A stretch of 64,000 bases of DNA. Source: Tequatrovirus BCH953P2. Positions 28,240 to 41,031 of the stretch are shown piece by piece (position 1 is the first letter of the stretch; each line of letters begins with the position of its first letter). Made by a program: the position numbers and the translations under genes. Below the pieces are notes generated by a model that was not told the origin of the DNA, did not search any database, and saw only the letters and a program-made list of their open reading frames with translations. The DNA is taken from the sequence record OZ035785.1; one strand, written 5' to 3'.

Positions 28240-28529
28240 TCAGTCTCCAATTTAATGTTCATAATTCTAGCGTATGATTGTGCCATCTCCGTGCCTCGTT
28301 CTATACATTCAAAATCAGAAGAGCACGGGTCATTTTTATAGGTCGTTCTCATAAAACTATAGAATTGTTCAGACGATTCTACGCTTTTATTTTCAAAAAG
28401 CATATAAACGTGCCTAATACCAGATTCCATAAATTTATCAAAATGAGGATCGACATTCGCTTCAATCGATGGAGATAAAACAAATGACAATCCTAGCATG
28501 GCAAAAAGTGCCGTTGCTTTTAAGGCCAT
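28236..28529 (-). CDS. rI: Lysis-inhibition regulator RI
   Basis: 97 aa matching remembered T4 RI (MALKATALFAMLGLSFVLSPSIEANVDPHFDKFMESG), signal-anchor N-terminus. Confidence 0.85.
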   Translation of the reverse strand: MALKATALFAMLGLSFVLSPSIEANVDPHFDKFMESGIRHVYMLFENKSVESSEQFYSFMRTTYKNDPCSSDFECIERGTEMAQSYARIMNIKLETE

Positions 28530-28541
28530 AAAGGCCTCCTA

Positions 28542-28754
28542 TCATTTTTGTCCTGTATTTACTTTATGCCGATGCACGGCCTTAACTTTATCAAGGTATT
28601 TTTCAAAATTTCGCAATCTAGTATAGTCTGCCGGAGATTGGTTGAGTGATACTTCTCGACGCAAAGCTGAAATGATATTTCCAACTTCCCTACGAATTTC
28701 ATCTAATTGAAGCACAGTAAGATTGCGAAGTTGCTTTTCAGTTAATTGTAGCAT
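28542..28754 (-). CDS. Hypothetical protein (rI.1 position)
   Basis: 70 aa ORF. Confidence 0.4.
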
Positions 28755-28779
28755 ATATACCCCTTTAGTTAGATAAACC

Positions 28780-28787
28780 TATTTATA
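28780..28787 (-). promoter_or_regulatory. Late-promoter-like TATAAATA upstream of the rI.1/rI region
   Basis: Plus-strand TATTTATA 26 nt upstream of the 28542..28754 ORF start. Confidence 0.4.
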
Positions 28788-28796
28788 ACTTTTGCA

Positions 28797-29378
28797 CTAA
28801 CCAAGCTTTTTAGTTAATTCATTCCAATGTTTTCTACACAAAGAAACATAAATTTCATCACCAATACAGATTTGATTACCTTCTTTAACTGGTGTTCCAT
28901 CTTCCATTAATCGAGCTGTCATAATCGCTTTTTTACCGCAATGACAAACTGCCTTTAGTTCAATAAGTTTATCTGCAATCGCTAAAAGTTCTTTAGAACC
29001 TTCAAACAATTTTCCAGCGAAATCAGTCCTTAGCCCATAAGCCATAACAGGAACATTATATGTATCAACAATTCGACTTAATTGATGCACCTGTTCAGTT
29101 TTTAAAAACTGAGCTTCATCTACAAATACGCAATGAATATCTTTTTGTGCTTCAGCCCATTTATAGAACTCGAAAATATCCATATCATCTGTAATAATAT
29201 TCGCTTCCTGCTTAATTCCAATGCGAGAAACTACTTCACAGACAGAATCGCGAGTATCAATAGCAGGCTTAAGAACTAATACACTCATTCCGCGTTCTTT
29301 ATAATTATGTGCAGCAGTCAAAAGAGAAGCAGATTTTCCAGCATTCATTGCTGCATAAGTAAAAATTAAACTCGCCAT
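28797..29378 (-). CDS. tk: Thymidine kinase
   Basis: 193 aa; P-loop AAMNAGKSASLL and C-terminal zinc-binding cysteines typical of type II thymidine kinases. Confidence 0.85.
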   Translation of the reverse strand: MASLIFTYAAMNAGKSASLLTAAHNYKERGMSVLVLKPAIDTRDSVCEVVSRIGIKQEANIITDDMDIFEFYKWAEAQKDIHCVFVDEAQFLKTEQVHQLSRIVDTYNVPVMAYGLRTDFAGKLFEGSKELLAIADKLIELKAVCHCGKKAIMTARLMEDGTPVKEGNQICIGDEIYVSLCRKHWNELTKKLG

Positions 29379-29379
29379 C

Positions 29380-29568
29380 TTAGTCCTTAGTTAAATTTTC
29401 TAAATATGTTTCTAAATCATTTTCAGCTTTATCGATAGATTTTACTAATTCGTAATATGTTTCGGCATCTCCATAATCAGAAGATAATTCAAAAGACAAA
29501 TCCTTTTCTAAACTAATAATTTCACCAACTAAAAATAATATTTCGTTCTTTTGTTCGCGAGTAATCAT
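29380..29568 (-). CDS. Small helical protein, family member 5
   Basis: 62 aa, MITREQKNEILFLVGEIISLEKD...DLETYLENL. Confidence 0.45.
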   Translation of the reverse strand: MITREQKNEILFLVGEIISLEKDLSFELSSDYGDAETYYELVKSIDKAENDLETYLENLTKD

Positions 29569-29756
29569 AAGGAATTTATATAATTAATAAGTTCTTGTTC
29601 TTTATTATCGAATTCTTTAGAAAGTTCTTCGTACTCGTTTGCACTAAAAGGACCGCATTCATTACAAACTTTTTCCAATTCACTATTTTTATCCATAACT
29701 TCGTGGATAAGAGAAAAGAGTTTGTCTTTTTGTTCTTTGCTTAAACTCATAACCAT
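29565..29756 (-). CDS. Small helical protein, family member 6
   Basis: 63 aa, MVMSLSKEQKDKLFSLIHEVMDK...ELINYINSL. Confidence 0.45.
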   Translation of the reverse strand: MVMSLSKEQKDKLFSLIHEVMDKNSELEKVCNECGPFSANEYEELSKEFDNKEQELINYINSL

Positions 29757-29974
29757 GTCACCTTTAAGCAGTATTCTTCTACATGCTGTTTACGACCTTT
29801 CTTATCAATAAAGGTATATTCAACGAATGTTCCAATGTAGTCTTTATCTACATCATGTGGACTATTAATTGGACATTTAGTACGGCAAATGCGTTCCCAT
29901 TGACGAATAATTACTGCTTTATTCTTTGGGTCATATGGATGTGGATAATGTATATTCATAATAACGGTTCCCAA
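29747..29974 (-). CDS. Hypothetical protein
   Basis: 75 aa ORF. Confidence 0.4.
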   Translation of the reverse strand: MGTVIMNIHYPHPYDPKNKAVIIRQWERICRTKCPINSPHDVDKDYIGTFVEYTFIDKKGRKQHVEEYCLKVTWL

Positions 29975-30423
29975 TCAACAATCACAATTTCTAATTTAGA
30001 GGAATACGTATCTAAAATCCCCTCAATAATATCCCAGTTCCCTTTACCTATGCCTGCACCAATCCTAGGCATATAGATTGTAGGTTTAATTAGTTTATTT
30101 TCACCAAACTCATTTAATTCTAACATACAATTCATTAAAGCGGAATACTCAAAATTTGGCCCTGGTTGAAATTGAGTATAAAGATTAAAGCAATACGCTT
30201 TATGAGTCCTAAAGTATTTTTCATAGACTGAGTAAGAACCGAGTTTAGTTACATCACCCCATTCAGTCTGTGATTTATCAGCTTCCAAAATTTTAGGGAA
30301 AGCTTTAGTTAATTGACCTGCGACTCCAGCTTTCATCATGTGAAAACAATTACATCCATGCGCAATATTTTTACCTTCAGTGAAAAGGGCGACAATATCG
30401 CCCTTGATATATTTTACAATCAT
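29956..30423 (-). CDS. Macro-domain-like protein
   Basis: 155 aa; GDIV...NIAHGCNCFHMMKAGVAGQL and PRIGAGIGKGNW resemble the macro-domain motifs GDIT...VNAAN...GGGV.GAI and P.I.TG.YG as seen in E. coli YmdB. Confidence 0.5.
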   Translation of the reverse strand: MIVKYIKGDIVALFTEGKNIAHGCNCFHMMKAGVAGQLTKAFPKILEADKSQTEWGDVTKLGSYSVYEKYFRTHKAYCFNLYTQFQPGPNFEYSALMNCMLELNEFGENKLIKPTIYMPRIGAGIGKGNWDIIEGILDTYSSKLEIVIVDWEPLL

Positions 30424-30767
30424 CTAGTACTCAATCCTCGATTATAAGAATCTACCAAACGGTCAACCATTGAATGACAAGCGGCTTTATCTTTCTCCTC
30501 CGCAACTGAGCATTCTAAGGTATTCCACTTTTTAGCATATCGTTTTAATAATGTATCGTTTTTGTATCTGCTTGATTTATCTCTTTCTCCGTCTTTATAT
30601 GCATATATTAATTTCTGCGCAAATTCAGCTTGGCATGCTTTATTTTTCCCACAATAATCTGCCGCAGTGCGATTTACATATTCTCTAATTTCAGTATATG
30701 ATGTATCTGCTGACGCAGAAGCAGAAAATGAAATTAATCCTATACATAAAACCAAAATTTTAGTCAT
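30420..30767 (-). CDS. Secreted/periplasmic small protein (vs position)
   Basis: 115 aa with N-terminal signal peptide MTKILVLCIGLISFSASASA. Confidence 0.45.
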   Translation of the reverse strand: MTKILVLCIGLISFSASASADTSYTEIREYVNRTAADYCGKNKACQAEFAQKLIYAYKDGERDKSSRYKNDTLLKRYAKKWNTLECSVAEEKDKAACHSMVDRLVDSYNRGLSTR

Positions 30768-31305
30768 TTACTATTTCCAAAAGTTTATTATTTTTAAGGT
30801 AATTAGCCTTTTCTAGGACTTCAGAAGCATATTTAGAACCAGCTTTAACATTCCATCCCGAATTATAAGAGGATATTGCTTTTCTTATATCGCCCTTATG
30901 TATATTTAACCAATAAGAAAGTTCAATGTACGCCCAGGAAGCTGAATTGGATCGTTTATTCAACATTCTTTTTATTTCAGCATCGGTCATATTATAACCA
31001 AGTTCCTTAACTCTCGCTCGCATAGTAGGCAAATAATTTTGGAACATTCCGTAGGCGTGATGCTTTGGTTTAGATTTTAAATTAACTCCGCCAGAGCTTT
31101 CTTGCCATAAAATGGCTGCCATTATATGGCCCAATCCGCTCTTGTGGATGTTTTTGTGTGTTTTATATTTTCCATCCTTAGAAAATTGTTCCCCGAATTG
31201 ATATGCGTAGCGCATGTTATCGAGTTGGACATTACTGAAAGTATGCTCGGAGCTATGTGCCATCATTGAAATGGCCAATAGACCAGCGAGTAGTGCTTTT
31301 CTCAT
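30760..31305 (-). CDS. Periplasmic lytic transglycosylase-like protein
   Basis: 181 aa; signal peptide MRKALLAGLLAISMMAHS; ILWQESSGG...AYGMFQ resembles the SLT catalytic E-S...GLMQ motif. Confidence 0.5.
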   Translation of the reverse strand: MRKALLAGLLAISMMAHSSEHTFSNVQLDNMRYAYQFGEQFSKDGKYKTHKNIHKSGLGHIMAAILWQESSGGVNLKSKPKHHAYGMFQNYLPTMRARVKELGYNMTDAEIKRMLNKRSNSASWAYIELSYWLNIHKGDIRKAISSYNSGWNVKAGSKYASEVLEKANYLKNNKLLEIVND

Positions 31306-31312
31306 GCTTACC

Positions 31313-31774
31313 TCATTGAGTTTTAATTACTGCTTTAGAAGCCTTTCCTGGTAAACGACGACTGTTGATAATTGCCATCCTACATTGAAGCGACGGGTCT
31401 TTGAACTTCGCATTAGGTTTACAAACTGTAAATCCAAGCCAAAGATTTCCATCTGTGATTTCTAAACGTCCAGGGCGATATTCAACCCCATCAATAAAAT
31501 CCTCGTCAATGTCAGGACGCGGAGGCATACTCAGGAATTCATTAACTTCTAAAACATGGTCTTTTATTTTGTGGAATAATTCAAAAACATATGTCTCATC
31601 AATCTCCCGTTGAATTGCACGATCAAGAAGATGCTGAGAATATTTTAGATGAAACGATGAGACCCCTGCTGCTTTTGATGCCTCACGAATCTCATTGTTA
31701 ATTTGACGAAACTCCGACTCAAAGTGACGACGAAGCTTATTTCGACGGATAAAAACTTCTGTGTTGATAGTCAT
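31313..31774 (-). CDS. regB: Endoribonuclease RegB
   Basis: 153 aa matching remembered T4 RegB (MTINTEVFIRRNKLRRHFESEFRQINNEIREASKAAG). Confidence 0.85.
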   Translation of the reverse strand: MTINTEVFIRRNKLRRHFESEFRQINNEIREASKAAGVSSFHLKYSQHLLDRAIQREIDETYVFELFHKIKDHVLEVNEFLSMPPRPDIDEDFIDGVEYRPGRLEITDGNLWLGFTVCKPNAKFKDPSLQCRMAIINSRRLPGKASKAVIKTQ

Positions 31775-31801
31775 GTTATTCTCCTCTTAACTGATAGAAA
31801 A

Positions 31802-31831
31802 ATTATACCACAGTCAAGAGGAAAAGTAAAC
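31802..31831 (-). promoter_or_regulatory. Early sigma70-type promoter upstream of regB
   Basis: Minus-strand GTTTAC-N18-TATAAT about 28 nt upstream of the regB start. Confidence 0.55.
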
Positions 31832-31833
31832 AG

Positions 31834-32154
31834 TTATTCTTTAAATCTAATCAATTTATTCATAGACTTTGTAACTTCTGCACGAACCTCATGTAGATTT
31901 TTGAGCTGTTCAAGACGCTGCTCATAGTAAGCAATTTCATCTTCTTCGAGACAGTCCTGTGAATCTTCTTTAAGATAACGTGCATAGTCCTGGAAAGCGT
32001 TACGAACTACTTCCTGAAAGTCATCAAGACTTTGAATTTTCTTAGGAGCAACAGATACACGACGAGGGGCAGTATAATACTCATAACCAAACCCTGCGCT
32101 TAATTGAGCCATTAATATTTTTCCTCTGGTTGGAACACAGCACGACAAGCCCAC
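31834..32154 (-). CDS. Hypothetical protein (vs.3 position)
   Basis: 106 aa ORF. Confidence 0.4.
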
Positions 32155-32414
32155 ATACTGGCTTCTTTGAGTTTCGTTTTAGCAATAGTTAACTGATCGA
32201 GGCTTTCGGCATAATTCTTCGCGAATTCACAGTCTTCACAATTATCTAGTGCTTCCCAGAATTCATCGTATAAAGCATCAAAGATAAGTCCTAAACGAAC
32301 TTCAGCGTCTTTGATGGCATTCACTTTACCGATTTTCTTTTCAGTATGCGGCTTATAACCCTTAATATCTTCAATCATATTTGACTTCCTCACCAGTACA
32401 TAAATCATATTCAA
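32112..32414 (-). CDS. Hypothetical protein (vs.4 position; candidate Acb2-like cyclic-oligonucleotide sponge by position only)
   Basis: 100 aa ORF, third gene upstream of regB; assignment rests on synteny, not on a recognised motif; start uncertain. Confidence 0.35.
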
Positions 32415-32592
32415 CTAAACGAATAGGTTCATGAATGCCATATCCCTGAACAGAAATTTCTGTAGTAGGATAAATTCCATCAATATCACCCATGTTCCAT
32501 GCTTCGTTAAATTGCTGTTCGCCTGAATTACTAAACCATTCGGCAAAAGCATTTAGCACATCTTCAGAACCTTCAATAATTATCTTTGCCAT
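32371..32592 (-). CDS. Hypothetical protein (vs.5 position)
   Basis: 73 aa ORF. Confidence 0.4.
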   Translation of the reverse strand: MAKIIIEGSEDVLNAFAEWFSNSGEQQFNEAWNMGDIDGIYPTTEISVQGYGIHEPIRLVEYDLCTGEEVKYD

Positions 32593-32954
32593 TACAAACT
32601 CTCGGTAAAGGTACGAGCGATAACATCGCGCTGCTGTTCCGGAGTCAGAGAGTTAAAGCGAACTGCATAACCTGATACACGGATGGTCAGCTGCGGATAT
32701 TTTTCCGGATGCTTAACTGCATCTTCCAGAGTTTCACGACGCAGAACGTTAACGTTCAGGTGTTGACCACCTTCAATTTTAACTGTAGGCTGTTGCTCAA
32801 TTTCAATTTCACGGGCATGCAAACCGTAGAAAATTTCTGGGTCTACAAAAGAGTCCTCTTTAAAGGTTTTAGAGACAATAATTCGTGCTTGAATACCATC
32901 TTCAAAATAAATAGTACCTTTATGTGTGCCTTCAAGAATTTGATATGCTTTCAT
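32592..32954 (-). CDS. Autonomous glycyl-radical cofactor (GrcA/YfiD-like)
   Basis: 120 aa; C-terminal ~60 residues ([60 protein letters not shown]) match the remembered E. coli GrcA C-terminus including the radical glycine in RVSGYAV. Confidence 0.8.
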
Positions 32955-32961
32955 ATAAACC

Positions 32962-33342
32962 TCAATTAGAAAATAAATTTATCCAAGATTGTTCTTTAAT
33001 TAAAAATGGCTCAGAATCATATGCCATTAAACTCTGTGTGATTAGTCCTTTAAAAGGCCCATCAATAAATTCCATGGTAAAATATGGAATTTTATTCATT
33101 AGCCGTGCATTAGGAGCAGTACATAAAACTCTGCATCCTTTGAATACACCCTTTTGTAATTTGTATTGCTTGGGATAAAATTCGCTCAAAATGTTATTAT
33201 TCGCTAAAATTTCAAAATGATTCACCAATTTATTTTTAATAGTTTTTGGTGAAAAATAGAGATATTCGAAAAGCTGTGCGTCTGTCATCATTGCATTCCG
33301 ATTACGAAAAACTGTGGACGAGTAATACCACCAATGCAACAT
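32962..33342 (-). CDS. Hypothetical protein (vs.7 position)
   Basis: 126 aa ORF. Confidence 0.4.
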
Positions 33343-33827
33343 TTACTATTGCAACAGTACTGTACAGTGTCAATATGAGCATCATAAATCTTATCCATAT
33401 CAGGAGATTTGACAGGCTCATCAATTATATACAAAATTCGCGAAAGCGATAAACCTCTGAACTTGCTTCCTTTATTACCAATAAAACTGCGCACAGAATC
33501 AGTAAATAAACGAAAACGTATATCATCATTAGAATAACGCGAAAATTCCTTTTTAATGTTATTTGCAGAAATTTTAGCGTAAGCTGAAGTATTAGAAAGA
33601 ACAATAACTGTTCCACCGTCATACAACCAATTAGCGGCAAAATTAGTTACTGCAGTTGATTTACCGGATTGACGTCCACCATCTAGTCGAAGTGTGCAAT
33701 ACTGCTTAAGTAAGTCTTCAAATGGTGGGATATAATCGTTTTTACAAATTTCTTCTACTCTAGCGTCAGAATGGTGTGTAAAAGCATTCATCAGGGATAG
33801 ATAAGGACCAGTTAAAAATGTTCTCAT
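33288..33827 (-). CDS. P-loop NTPase-like protein
   Basis: 179 aa; Walker A GGRQSGKST and Walker B-like ILYIIDEP. Confidence 0.45.
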   Translation of the reverse strand: MRTFLTGPYLSLMNAFTHHSDARVEEICKNDYIPPFEDLLKQYCTLRLDGGRQSGKSTAVTNFAANWLYDGGTVIVLSNTSAYAKISANNIKKEFSRYSNDDIRFRLFTDSVRSFIGNKGSKFRGLSLSRILYIIDEPVKSPDMDKIYDAHIDTVQYCCNSKCCIGGITRPQFFVIGMQ

Positions 33828-40069: not shown

Positions 40070-40146
40070 TGGTCAGGGTGAAAGGATTCTAACCTTTAAC
40101 CTGCGGTTTAGAGGACCGCTACTCTATACAATTGAGTTACACCCCG
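40070..40146 (-). tRNA. tRNA-like element, anticodon UCU (Arg) if folded as tRNA; atypical
   Basis: Hand fold: acceptor CGGGGTG/CACCCTG, anticodon stem GCGGT/ACCGC, loop CCUCUAA, T arm AAAGG-TTAGAAT-CCTTT, 3-prime CCA encoded; D loop lacks GG and position 33 is C. Confidence 0.35.
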
Positions 40147-40272
40147 TAATTAGTTCACAGCAATACCTACTCCAACAATCAAGATGTCTTCACACGAAAT
40201 TAAGAGAAGTGTGATCAGTTCAACCCCTATAATCGCGTCAAGTAGATATTAATGTGACAACTGTCACAAGTT

Positions 40273-40347
40273 TGGCGGACATGCATGGATTCGAACCATG
40301 GACCAATTGATTAACAGTCAACTGCTCTACCACTGAGCTACACATCC
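40273..40347 (-). tRNA. tRNA-Asn (anticodon GUU)
   Basis: Hand fold of reverse complement GGATGTGTAGCTCAGTGGTAGAGCAGTTGACTGTTAATCAATTGGTCCATGGTTCGAATCCATGCATGTCCGCCA; loop CUGUUAA; CCA encoded. Confidence 0.7.
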
Positions 40348-40351
40348 AAAT

Positions 40352-40438
40352 TGGTGGGGAGTGGTGGAGTCGAACCACCCGAGTCGCAATGACAATGAAT
40401 TTACAGTCCACCCCGCTACCCCTACCGGATAACTCCCC
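40352..40438 (-). tRNA. tRNA-Tyr (anticodon GUA), long variable arm
   Basis: Acceptor GGGGAGT/ACTCCCC, loop CUGUAAA, long variable arm, T arm GGTGG-TTCGACT-CCACC, CCA encoded; 5-prime end lies in a C12 run. Confidence 0.6.
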
Positions 40439-40458
40439 CCCCCCCCTAATTCTTAATT

Positions 40459-40533
40459 TGGTGGCCCTGGGTGGAATTGAACCACCATCTGGCGATTATG
40501 AGTCGCTTGCTTGAACCTTCCAGCTACAGGGCC
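40459..40533 (-). tRNA. tRNA with CAU anticodon (Ile2 lysidine-type or Met)
   Basis: Acceptor GGCCCTG/CAGGGCC, anticodon loop CUCAUAA, T arm GGTGG-TTCAATT-CCACC, CCA encoded. Confidence 0.6.
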
Positions 40534-40534
40534 T

Positions 40535-40610
40535 TGGTGCTGATTGACGGAATCGAACCGCCGACCTTCTCATTACAAGTGAGTTGCTCTACCTACTGAG
40601 CTAAATCAGC
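40535..40610 (-). tRNA. tRNA-Thr (anticodon UGU)
   Basis: Acceptor GCTGATT/AATCAGC, D arm GCTC-AGTAGGTA-GAGC, loop CUUGUAA, CCA encoded. Confidence 0.7.
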
Positions 40611-40615
40611 AAAAC

Positions 40616-40705
40616 TGGCGGAGGCGATAGGATTTGAACCTATGAGTCGCCGGAGCGACTGCCGGTTTTCAAGACCGGTGCATTAAACCACTCTGCCACG
40701 CCTCC
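40616..40705 (-). tRNA. tRNA-Ser (anticodon UGA), long variable arm
   Basis: Acceptor GGAGGCG/CGCCTCC, anticodon stem CCGGT/ACCGG with loop CUUGAAA, long variable arm, CCA encoded. Confidence 0.75.
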
Positions 40706-40707
40706 AG

Positions 40708-40781
40708 TCTCCGCGGCAGGATTTGAACCTACGACATTCTGCTCCCAAAGCAGACGCTCTACCAAACTGAGCTACACGGAG
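40708..40781 (-). tRNA. tRNA-Pro (anticodon UGG)
   Basis: Acceptor CTCCGTG/CGCGGAG, anticodon stem TCTGC/GCAGA, loop UUUGGGA; CCA not encoded; 2 nt spacer to tRNA-Ser. Confidence 0.7.
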
Positions 40782-40791
40782 TAAATTAAAT

Positions 40792-40865
<74 letters not shown>

Positions 40866-40870
40866 AAATT

Positions 40871-40957
40871 TGGTGCGAGAAGTGGGACTCGAACCCACAA
40901 GGAAATCATTCCGCAGCATTTTAAGTGCTGTGCCTTTACCAATTTGACCATTCTCGC
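40871..40957 (-). tRNA. tRNA-Leu (anticodon UAA), long variable arm
   Basis: Acceptor GCGAGAA/TTCTCGC, anticodon stem CAGCA/TGCTG with loop CUUAAAA, long variable arm, CCA encoded. Confidence 0.75.
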
Positions 40958-40958
40958 G

Positions 40959-41031
40959 CTGGGAATAAAGGACTCGAACCTTTGCATCTAGCAGTCAAAG
41001 TGCTATGCCTTACCAACTTGGCTAATTCCCA
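40959..41031 (-). tRNA. tRNA-Gln (anticodon UUG)
   Basis: Reverse complement begins TGGGAATTAGCCAAGTTGGTAAGGCATAGCACTTTGACTGCTAG, agreeing with remembered T4 tRNA-Gln; CCA not encoded; 1 nt spacer to tRNA-Leu. Confidence 0.8.

What the first reader, a model, noticed from the sequence alone, without database searches (positions are those of the whole stretch)
29956..30423. Macro-domain-like protein in the tk-regB accessory block
Seen in sequence: the 155 aa ORF has GDIV near the N-terminus, then NIAHGCNCFHMMKAGVAGQL and PRIGAGIGKGNW, which parallel the ADP-ribose-binding motifs of macro domains (GDIT, VNAAN...GGGV.GAI, P.I.TG.YG in E. coli YmdB). Established: macro domains bind or hydrolyse ADP-ribose derivatives, and several bacterial defences act through ADP-ribosylation or ADP-ribose-derived signals. 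Inference: this may reverse a host ADP-ribosylation defence or cooperate with the phage's own ADP-ribosyltransferases.
Basis: partly seen in the sequence, partly recalled or inferred. Interest (0 to 1): 0.6.

Follow-up and report, generated by a model that had tools for sequence, protein, structure and literature searches.

The report
Phage macrodomain that counters DarTG2

Summary
The ORF at 29956..30423 (- strand) is real, and the quoted motifs are at residues 8-11, 19-38 and 119-130. The window comes from a Tequatrovirus (T6/T2/T4-like). The ORF is the ortholog of T4 tk.4: 150 of 155 residues are identical and the gene order tk / tk.1-3 / tk.4 / vs / vs.1 / regB is the same.

It is a macrodomain:
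- Pfam PF01661 scores 26 bits against a cut-off of 22.
- The AlphaFold model has pLDDT 94.9.

The T4 GenBank record already notes an "A1pp phosphatase motif". A November 2025 preprint (HIDEN-SEQ) found tk.4 to be the only T4 gene that becomes necessary on a DarTG2 host, showed that a knockout is sensitised, and named the gene adfM.

One refinement comes from this work. The protein is not a DarG-type enzyme. The catalytic lysine of DarG and TARG1 is replaced by an invariant glutamine (Q84, in 200 of 200 relatives). This matches Streptomyces SCO6735, a stand-alone hydrolase of thymidine-linked ADP-ribose on DNA in which that glutamine is essential. PhiKZ "AdfM" is a separate, lysine-type lineage. 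The biochemistry of Tk.4 itself remains untested.

The parts
29956..30423 (-). tk.4 / adfM coding sequence, 155 aa, a single macrodomain
30319..30360 (-). Codons 22-35 (HGCNCFHMMKAGVA): loop 1 of the ADP-ribose pocket. It includes H22, G23 and N25, the equivalents of SCO6735 His24, Val25 and Asn27, and the G-x-G-type loop ending in G33 and A35.
   Evidence: Profile alignment to SCO6735 5e3b and TARG1. N25, G33 and A35 are invariant in 58/58 relatives and N25 in 142/142 further relatives. Residue roles are from PMC9411070. PhiKZ AdfM N23A, the same column, reduces activity.
30172..30174 (-). Codon 84 (CAA, Gln). It occupies the position of the catalytic Lys84 of TARG1 and Lys80 of DarG, and equals Gln85 of SCO6735.
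   Evidence: Alignments. Invariant in 58/58 and 142/142. SCO6735 Q85A is inactive (PMC9411070). Codon read directly.
30034..30069 (-). Codons 119-130 (PRIGAGIGKGNW): loop 2, the phosphate-binding loop. G122 and G124 correspond to SCO6735 Gly126 and Gly128. G126 stands where TARG1 has Asp125.
   Evidence: alignments. P119, G122 and G124 are invariant. SCO6735 G128E loses activity.
30420..30423 (-). ATGA overlap: the stop of vs and the start of tk.4
   Evidence: Read from the sequence and ORF coordinates. Suggests co-transcription and translational coupling (inference).
29956..29959 (-). ATGA overlap: the stop of tk.4 and the ATG start of tk.3 (tk.3 = 29747..29959, DUF7202)
   Evidence: Sequence. 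T4 tk.3 has the same 213-nt length. Pfam DUF7202 over 70/70 positions.

Best explanation
The ORF is the T-even phage gene tk.4, now called adfM (anti-DarT factor, macrodomain). It is a stand-alone, single-domain ADP-ribosyl glycohydrolase made from the early leftward transcription unit regB-vs.1-vs-tk.4-tk.3. When the host's DarT2 toxin attaches ADP-ribose to thymidines in single-stranded phage DNA and so blocks replication, the protein most likely binds the ADP-ribose in its macrodomain pocket and cleaves the ribose-N3-thymine bond. This would release ADP-ribose and restore replicable DNA. In effect the phage would carry its own 'antitoxin' without the toxin-binding domain of DarG.

Shown:
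- Orthology to T4 tk.4.
- The macrodomain fold.
- Conservation of the pocket.
- For the T4 ortholog only, the genetic requirement on DarTG2 hosts.

Inferred:
- That the window's allele behaves as T4's does.
- That protection is by hydrolysis.
- That catalysis follows the SCO6735 scheme, in which Gln84, held by Asn25, positions the distal ribose and a water molecule is the reactant, rather than the lysine chemistry of DarG and TARG1.
- Early expression.
For: - Orthology: 150/155 identity to T4 Tk.4 and identical gene order. T2, T6 and NIC06P2 orthologs are 97-99% identical.
- Defence libraries: the only PADLOC hit is DarG (E = 3e-8, model positions 2-145 of 329). The only NCBIfam hit is antitoxin DarG, again the macrodomain part only.
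- Function in T4: tk.4 was the single significant HIDEN-SEQ hit on DarTG2, and a knockout was sensitised (10.1101/2025.11.20.689424). T4 and T2 lacking adfA and adfN stay DarTG2-resistant, which had predicted such a factor (PMC11825919).
- Mechanism: Gln84, Asn25, His22, Gly122 and Gly124 align with SCO6735 Gln85, Asn27, His24, Gly126 and Gly128. Gln84, Asn25, Gly122 and Gly124 are invariant and His22 nearly so (57/58 and 136/142). SCO6735 removes thymidine-linked ADP-ribose from DNA and protects against DarT, and its Q85A mutant is dead and N27S nearly dead (PMC9411070).
- Precedent: a phage macrodomain has been shown in vitro to remove DarT2 marks from a TNTC oligonucleotide (PhiKZ gp104, PMC13309987).
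Against: - The genetic evidence is from one preprint, on T4 and not on this phage.
- The window's allele differs from T4's at 5 residues, three of them in loop 1 (M29/T, K31/G, A32/S). K31 and A32 are shared with T6, and K31 occurs in other family members (6/58).
- No biochemical assay of any Tk.4-family protein was found in the searchable literature.
- The DNA-contacting lysines of SCO6735 (Lys34, Lys89) and its long mobile loop are not conserved.
- Catalytically dead SCO6735 still inhibits DarT by binding, so hydrolysis is not the only possible route to protection.
Confidence: 0.85

Rival explanations
1. It neutralises DarT2 mainly by binding the toxin or its DNA substrate stoichiometrically, and catalysis is dispensable.
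For: Catalytically inactive SCO6735 (Q85A), DarG (K80A) and TARG1 (K84A) all reduce DarT activity in vitro, SCO6735 most strongly (PMC9411070). The T4 genetics do not separate binding from hydrolysis.
Against: The protein lacks the C-terminal DarT-binding domain of DarG; it matches only positions 2-146 of the 338-position model. Every pocket residue needed for SCO6735 catalysis is invariant across 200 relatives, which is what selection for catalysis predicts. PhiKZ AdfM acts catalytically.
Confidence: 0.08
2. It is a small-molecule ADP-ribose-derivative hydrolase, an ADP-ribose-1''-phosphate phosphatase or O-acetyl-ADP-ribose deacetylase, as the database names 'phosphatase' and 'Poa1p-like' imply. 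On this view it serves nucleotide or RNA-repair by-product clean-up.
Against: These names are transferred from the Pfam/CDD family, not from assays. Poa1p Ser30 (mutated in 6lft) aligns with position 29, which is variable here (T/A/V/L/M). The T4 mutant phenotype is specific to DarTG2. This activity could coexist with DNA de-ADP-ribosylation.
Confidence: 0.05
3. Its main substrates are ADP-ribosylated proteins or RNAs. Candidates are marks made by host defence transferases other than DarT2, or by the phage's own Alt, ModA and ModB enzymes.
For: TARG1 and SCO6735 both also remove ADP-ribose from proteins (PMC9411070). T-even phages encode three ADP-ribosyltransferases (established knowledge).
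Against: Alt, ModA and ModB modify arginine, a linkage that macrodomains are not known to cleave (established knowledge, not tested here). In T4 the gene is dispensable on plain K-12 and was picked up only with DarTG2 among the systems screened. No ADP-ribosyltransferase gene lies next to it.
Confidence: 0.05

Closest known systems
T4 Tk.4 = AdfM (anti-DarT factor macrodomain; bioRxiv 10.1101/2025.11.20.689424)
   Same: 97% identical (150/155), same length, same neighbours (vs upstream, tk.3 downstream), same ATGA-overlapped arrangement.
   Different: Five substitutions (T15A, M29T, K31G, A32S, S51L when written window to T4). The loop-1 'MKAG' variant is shared with T6 and NIC06P2, while T4 and T2 have 'MGSG'. 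The phenotype was tested only for the T4 allele.
SCO6735 (Streptomyces coelicolor, PDB 5e3b) and its Bacteroides homolog BT1257 (PDB 2fg1/2afc)
   Different: Only 26-29% identity. Tk.4 lacks the mobile loop that is 5-6 residues longer in SCO6735 and carries Lys89, and has A/S where SCO6735 has Lys34. It is phage-borne rather than a cellular DNA-damage-regulon gene.
DarG antitoxin of DarTG2 (PDB 5m3i, 5m3e, 7omu; NCBIfam NF048014)
   Different: No C-terminal DarT-binding domain. Gln instead of catalytic Lys80. Not next to a darT gene. 26.7 bits against a 250-bit family cut-off.
PhiKZ gp104, also named AdfM (Cell Rep 2026, PMC13309987)
   Same: A phage-encoded stand-alone macrodomain that counters DarTG2. 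The conserved Asn (N23 there, N25 here) lies in the same column.
   Different: A separate lineage. Pairwise BLASTP is not significant (E = 3.9) and only the profile detects it (40 bits). It carries the DarG-type lysine ('FPTK') where Tk.4 has Gln84. It is imported into the phage nucleus. One name therefore covers two independently recruited enzymes.
Human TARG1/OARD1 (PDB 4j5r) and yeast Poa1p (PDB 6lfq)
   Same: Same ALC1-like macrodomain class. Top Foldseek hits. Residue numbering is almost collinear.
   Different: The TARG1 catalytic dyad Lys84/Asp125 corresponds to Gln84/Gly126 here. Poa1p acts on ADP-ribose-1''-phosphate.
AdfN (T4 30.3, a NADAR-fold anti-DarTG1 factor; PMC11825919)
   Same: Same strategy in the same phages: an orphan antitoxin-like ADP-ribosyl glycohydrolase that erases the toxin's DNA mark.
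   Different: Unrelated fold. Specific for guanosine-linked ADP-ribose (DarT1) and does not protect against DarTG2. Encoded elsewhere in the genome.

Membership tests
Macro domain (Pfam PF01661) | Profile score above Pfam's gathering cut-off | tested here: met
   26 bits against cut-off 22, E = 9.7e-6, residues 22-132 on profile positions 2-113 of 118
Macro domain (Pfam PF01661) | Three-layer alpha/beta/alpha fold with a central mixed sheet | tested here: met
Macro domain (Pfam PF01661) | Two glycine-rich ADP-ribose-binding loops and the conserved Asn | tested here: met
   N25, G33, A35, P119, G122 and G124 are invariant in 58 relatives; N25, A35, G122 and G124 are also invariant and G33 and P119 are 141/142 in 142 further relatives. 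They align with the loops of TARG1 and SCO6735.
ALC1-like (TARG1 / DarG / Poa1p / SCO6735) macrodomain class | Closer in sequence and structure to this class than to MacroD, viral or PARG classes | tested here: met
SCO6735-type (glutamine) DNA ADP-ribosyl hydrolase | Gln at the position of TARG1 Lys84 / DarG Lys80, with the Asn that holds it | tested here: met
   Q84 and N25 align with Gln85 and Asn27. Both are invariant in 200/200.
SCO6735-type (glutamine) DNA ADP-ribosyl hydrolase | DNA-contacting Lys34 and Lys89 and the extended mobile loop | tested here: not met
   Lys34 aligns with A32 (S32 in T4). Lys89 aligns with G88, and the loop is 5-6 residues shorter. The window has K31 and K127 nearby, but their role is unknown.
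SCO6735-type (glutamine) DNA ADP-ribosyl hydrolase | Hydrolysis of thymidine-N3-linked ADP-ribose on single-stranded DNA | not testable with these tools
   Needs an enzyme assay. No published assay for any Tk.4-family protein was found.
DarG antitoxin (NCBIfam NF048014 equivalog) | Full-length score above the curated cut-off | tested here: not met
   26.7 bits against 250
DarG antitoxin (NCBIfam NF048014 equivalog) | C-terminal DarT-binding domain | tested here: not met
   The protein is 155 aa and covers model positions 2-146 of 338, or 2-145 of 329 in PADLOC.
DarG antitoxin (NCBIfam NF048014 equivalog) | Catalytic lysine (Lys80) | tested here: not met
   Gln84 occupies that column (with the equivalence stated in PMC9411070).
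DarG antitoxin (NCBIfam NF048014 equivalog) | Encoded next to a darT toxin gene | tested here: not met
   The neighbours are vs (no Pfam hit) and tk.3 (DUF7202).
T-even AdfM (tk.4) | Orthology to T4 tk.4: high identity and conserved position | tested here: met
   150/155 identical. Order tk, tk.1, tk.2, tk.3, tk.4, vs, vs.1, regB in both.
T-even AdfM (tk.4) | Needed for growth on DarTG2-expressing hosts | not testable with these tools
   Shown for T4 only (preprint).

The most novel reading that the evidence does not exclude
T-even AdfM (Tk.4) is not a captured DarG antitoxin. It is a member of a very large, mostly phage-borne clade of glutamine-type ALC1-like macrodomains (at least 1,257 clusters at 50% identity with E <= 1e-30) whose nearest cellular relatives are the stand-alone 'genome protector' SCO6735/BT1257 enzymes. 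If so, phages recruited anti-DarT2 macrodomains at least twice, as the Gln type in T4-like phages and the Lys type in PhiKZ-like phages. The Gln type may, like SCO6735, also strip ADP-ribose from proteins, which would give it a wider anti-defence range than DarTG2 alone. Loop-1 allelic variation among T-even phages (MGSG or MKAG) could tune this.
Probability: 0.4. Interest if true: 0.35.

Novelty: already known. Interest (0 to 1): 0.15.

Why it matters
It confirms that raw-sequence reading can pick out a true counter-defence gene, but the gene is already annotated and has been assigned a function. The T4 GenBank record notes the 'A1pp' motif. The 2025 HIDEN-SEQ preprint assigned the anti-DarTG2 role and the name adfM.

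What remains open is the chemistry. The T-even enzyme has the SCO6735-type glutamine rather than the DarG/TARG1 lysine, and it differs in lineage from the biochemically characterised PhiKZ AdfM. A direct assay would establish whether the water-mediated glutamine mechanism operates in a very widespread phage enzyme family, and how broad its substrate range is. This is useful for annotating the 'phosphatase' entries seen among the 2,812 matching phage records, but it is not a surprise to specialists.

Tried and rejected
- The sigma-70 promoter and terminator scan of 28500-33500 was uninformative: 18 promoter-like sites against 19.3 expected. The only plausible site is the TTTACT-17-TATAAT match with an extended TG at 31830..31802 (-), upstream of regB. 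I use it only as a weak hint that tk.4 lies in an early transcript.
- I tested whether the Tk.4 family and PhiKZ AdfM are the same family. Pairwise BLASTP gave E = 3.9 and only the profile linked them, so I treat them as distinct lineages.
- I looked for cellular homologs next to darT. Two 'MAG' proteins labelled Bacilli and Culicoidibacterales (P0060, P0073) turned out to sit on T4-like phage contigs. They say nothing about a cellular toxin-antitoxin origin.
- I looked for clustering of substitutions among T-even alleles as a sign of an arms race. Three of the five window-to-T4 differences lie in loop 1, but the sample is small and more divergent alleles vary elsewhere, so I make no claim.
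- The CmdTAC paper (an mRNA ADP-ribosylating defence active against T-even phages) was checked for a macrodomain link. The word occurs only in its reference list.
- I could not read the coordinates of the predicted model, so the Gln84-Asn25 geometry was not measured. The equivalences rest on HMM alignments.
- The first literature query failed because a two-character term was not accepted.

Full report
**Observation**

The window carries a 155-codon ATG ORF at 29956..30423 on the - strand. Its translation contains the three quoted motifs: GDIV at residues 8-11, NIAHGCNCFHMMKAGVAGQL at 19-38 and PRIGAGIGKGNW at 119-130. The ORF is packed between two others with four-base ATGA overlaps. The stop of the upstream gene (vs, 30420..30767) overlaps its start at 30420-30423. 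Its own stop overlaps the ATG of the downstream gene (tk.3, 29747..29959) at 29956-29959.

**Where the window comes from**

- Megablast of 29000-31400 finds 668 phage records. The best are T6, Shigella phage SH7, Yersinia phage PST and T2, at 98.0-98.6% identity.
- The ends of the window correspond to regA/62/44/45/rpbA and to fibritin and neck protein genes. The window is therefore about 64 kb of a Tequatrovirus genome.
- In the annotated T2, T4 and T6 records the ORF is tk.4, between tk.3 and vs, in the order tk, tk.1, tk.2, tk.3, tk.4, vs, vs.1, regB.
- The protein is 150/155 identical to T4 Tk.4, NP_049723.
- The five differences are T15A, M29T, K31G, A32S and S51L, written window to T4. 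The loop variant 'MKAG' is shared with T6 and Tequatrovirus NIC06P2, while T4 and T2 have 'MGSG'.

**Is it a macrodomain?**

Yes.
- Pfam PF01661 is matched above the curated cut-off: 26 bits against 22, E = 9.7e-6.
- A single-sequence search of PDB sequences finds BT1257 (E = 2.7e-8), yeast Poa1p, human TARG1/OARD1, Streptomyces SCO6735 and the DarG macrodomains.
- I built a profile from 58 relatives. It raises these matches to E = 1e-21 (BT1257), 1e-17 (SCO6735), 5e-17 (TARG1), 1e-15 (Poa1p) and 4e-14 and 7e-13 (DarG). Other macrodomain classes start at E = 0.003.
- The AlphaFold2 model is confident (pLDDT 94.9, pTM 0.90) with alternating strands and helices.
The motif parallel is therefore generic to macrodomains and not specific to YmdB.

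**What is already known**

RefSeq-style re-annotations call the protein 'phosphatase', 'Poa1p-like' or 'macro domain-containing protein'.
- The AdfN paper (PMC11825919) showed that T4 and T2 lacking adfA and adfN remain resistant to DarTG2. It predicted a further anti-DarTG factor.
- The HIDEN-SEQ preprint (10.1101/2025.11.20.689424, November 2025) found it. With a saturated T4 transposon library on a DarTG2 host, tk.4 was the single significant hit. A clean knockout was sensitised. The authors named the gene adfM and proposed enzymatic removal of ADP-ribose from DNA.
The finding is correct but not new.

**How it most likely works, and one refinement**

The preprint compares Tk.4 with the M. 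tuberculosis DarG macrodomain. My alignments show that Tk.4 is not of the DarG/TARG1 catalytic type.
- The column holding TARG1 Lys84 (equivalent to DarG Lys80) holds Gln84 in Tk.4.
- TARG1 Asp125 corresponds to Gly126.
- Gln84 is invariant in all 58 aligned relatives. It is also invariant in 142 further representatives of 50%-identity clusters from an exhaustive search.

This is the arrangement of SCO6735. Hloušek-Kasun et al. (PMC9411070) showed that SCO6735 removes thymidine-linked ADP-ribose from DNA and protects against DarT. They also showed that it lacks the Lys/Asp residues and depends on Gln85 (Q85A inactive), Asn27 (N27S nearly inactive) and Gly128. They proposed a water-mediated mechanism, with the backbone of Val25 holding the water.

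After allowing for the 20-residue tag in 5e3b, the Tk.4 equivalents are His22, Gly23, Asn25, Gln84, Gly122 and Gly124. All are invariant or nearly so. Not conserved are the SCO6735 DNA-contact lysines: Lys34 aligns with A32 (S32 in T4), and Lys89 lies in a loop that is 5-6 residues shorter here.

The protein has no counterpart of the DarT-binding C-terminal domain of DarG. It covers positions 2-146 of a 338-position model and scores 26.7 bits against a 250-bit cut-off.

My reading is that the protein acts as an orphan, SCO6735-like hydrolase that erases DarT2's thymidine marks from replicating phage DNA. I put about 0.85 on the anti-DarT2 role for this allele and about 0.65 on the specific Gln-type hydrolytic mechanism. 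Protection by binding alone cannot be excluded, because dead SCO6735 still inhibits DarT in vitro.

**Two different 'AdfM' proteins**

A 2026 Cell Reports paper (PMC13309987) uses the same name for PhiKZ gp104. That macrodomain is imported into the phage nucleus, removes DarT2 marks from a TNTC oligonucleotide in vitro, and is weakened by N23A. I translated the construct given in that paper and compared it with Tk.4.
- Pairwise BLASTP is not significant (E = 3.9).
- The Tk.4 profile detects it at 40 bits.
- It has the DarG-type lysine ('FPTK') in the Gln84 column.
- Its Asn23 aligns with Tk.4 Asn25.

T4-like and PhiKZ-like phages therefore appear to have recruited different branches of the same macrodomain class against the same defence.

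**Distribution**

- tblastn finds the family in 2,812 of 50,697 phage records. These span Tequatrovirus and other T4-like genera and many other phages of Escherichia, Klebsiella, Salmonella, Pseudomonas, Vibrio, Acinetobacter and Aeromonas.
- The exhaustive profile search gives 1,257 clusters at E <= 1e-30 and 10,499 at E <= 1e-10.
- Two 'bacterial MAG' homologs lie on T4-like phage contigs, next to RNA ligase 1, PNKP, a Dda-like helicase, a spanin and dCMP deaminase.
- This agrees with the survey of Iyer et al. (PMC9503650), in which macro domains are the commonest ADP-ribose-processing domain of viruses and occur in 41% of myoviruses.

**Rivals**

1. Stoichiometric inhibition of DarT2 without catalysis. 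This is possible but fits poorly with a fully conserved catalytic pocket.
2. Small-molecule Appr1p phosphatase or OAADPr deacetylase. This is the source of the 'phosphatase' label, but the label is transferred, not tested.
3. Reversal of protein or RNA ADP-ribosylation, including the phage's own Alt/Mod marks. There is no supporting evidence. The arginine linkage is not a known macrodomain substrate (my own knowledge). The gene is dispensable on plain K-12.

These activities could coexist with the main one. None explains the DarTG2-specific phenotype better.

**Verdict**

Interest is low (0.15). The only added value here is the assignment to the glutamine (SCO6735/BT1257-like) subtype and the distinction from PhiKZ AdfM. 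Both are alignment-based and need an enzyme assay.

Noticed in passing
window 30420..30767 (-), gene vs: The protein annotated 'valyl-tRNA synthetase modifier' begins MTKILVLCIGLISFSASASA|D. This looks like a cleavable Sec signal peptide, and four cysteines follow in the mature part. It has no Pfam hit. A secreted protein would be odd for a factor said to bind a cytoplasmic synthetase. The HIDEN-SEQ preprint reports that vs is needed in minimal medium.
   Followed up: no
window 29380..29568 (-) and 29565..29756 (-), tk.1 and tk.2: The two small genes downstream of tk.3 are tandem paralogs. Both match DUF7438 over their full length (E = 4.6e-15 and 4.4e-19).
   Followed up: partly
window 29756..29747 region, between tk.2 and tk.3: T2 and T6 carry two extra small ORFs here (RB32ORF110c/111c, about 370 bp), which the window and T4 lack. 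Yet the Tk.4 loop-1 allele of the window is the T6 type. This is local mosaicism within a few hundred bases.
   Followed up: partly
window 40070..41031 (-): A cluster of 10 tRNA genes: Arg, Asn, Tyr, Met/Ile2(CAT), Thr, Ser, Pro, Gly, Leu, Gln. From memory, T4 has eight and lacks Tyr and Asn. A 2026 paper links phage T6 tRNA-Tyr to evasion of the Septu defence (PMC13096335, abstract seen).
   Followed up: no
window residues K31 and K127 of Tk.4 (codons at 30331..30333 and 30043..30045, - strand): Both binding loops carry lysines that are rare in the family. K31 occurs in 6/58 and 3/142 relatives, and K127 in 4/58 and 1/142, where the consensus is Gly. K127 is shared by all five T-even alleles compared, and K31 only by the T6-type alleles. 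They might replace the DNA-contact lysines of SCO6735, but this is untested.
   Followed up: partly
L005 and L006 (NCBI MAG contigs JBOFGC010000414.1 and JBOFQK010000158.1): Contigs binned as Bacilli and Culicoidibacterales MAGs are T4-like phage DNA, carrying Rnl1, PNKP, a Dda-like helicase, a T4 spanin and dCMP deaminase. In L006 the macrodomain gene is again followed, two genes later, by an SLT transglycosylase, as in tk.4-vs-vs.1.
   Followed up: partly
window 30385..30405 (+ strand, inside tk.4 codons 7-13): A terminator-like hairpin, AAGGGCGACAATATCGCCCTT followed by a T-run, lies on the strand antisense to tk.4. It is probably chance: 5 such sites were found against 2.7 expected in shuffles.
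   Followed up: no
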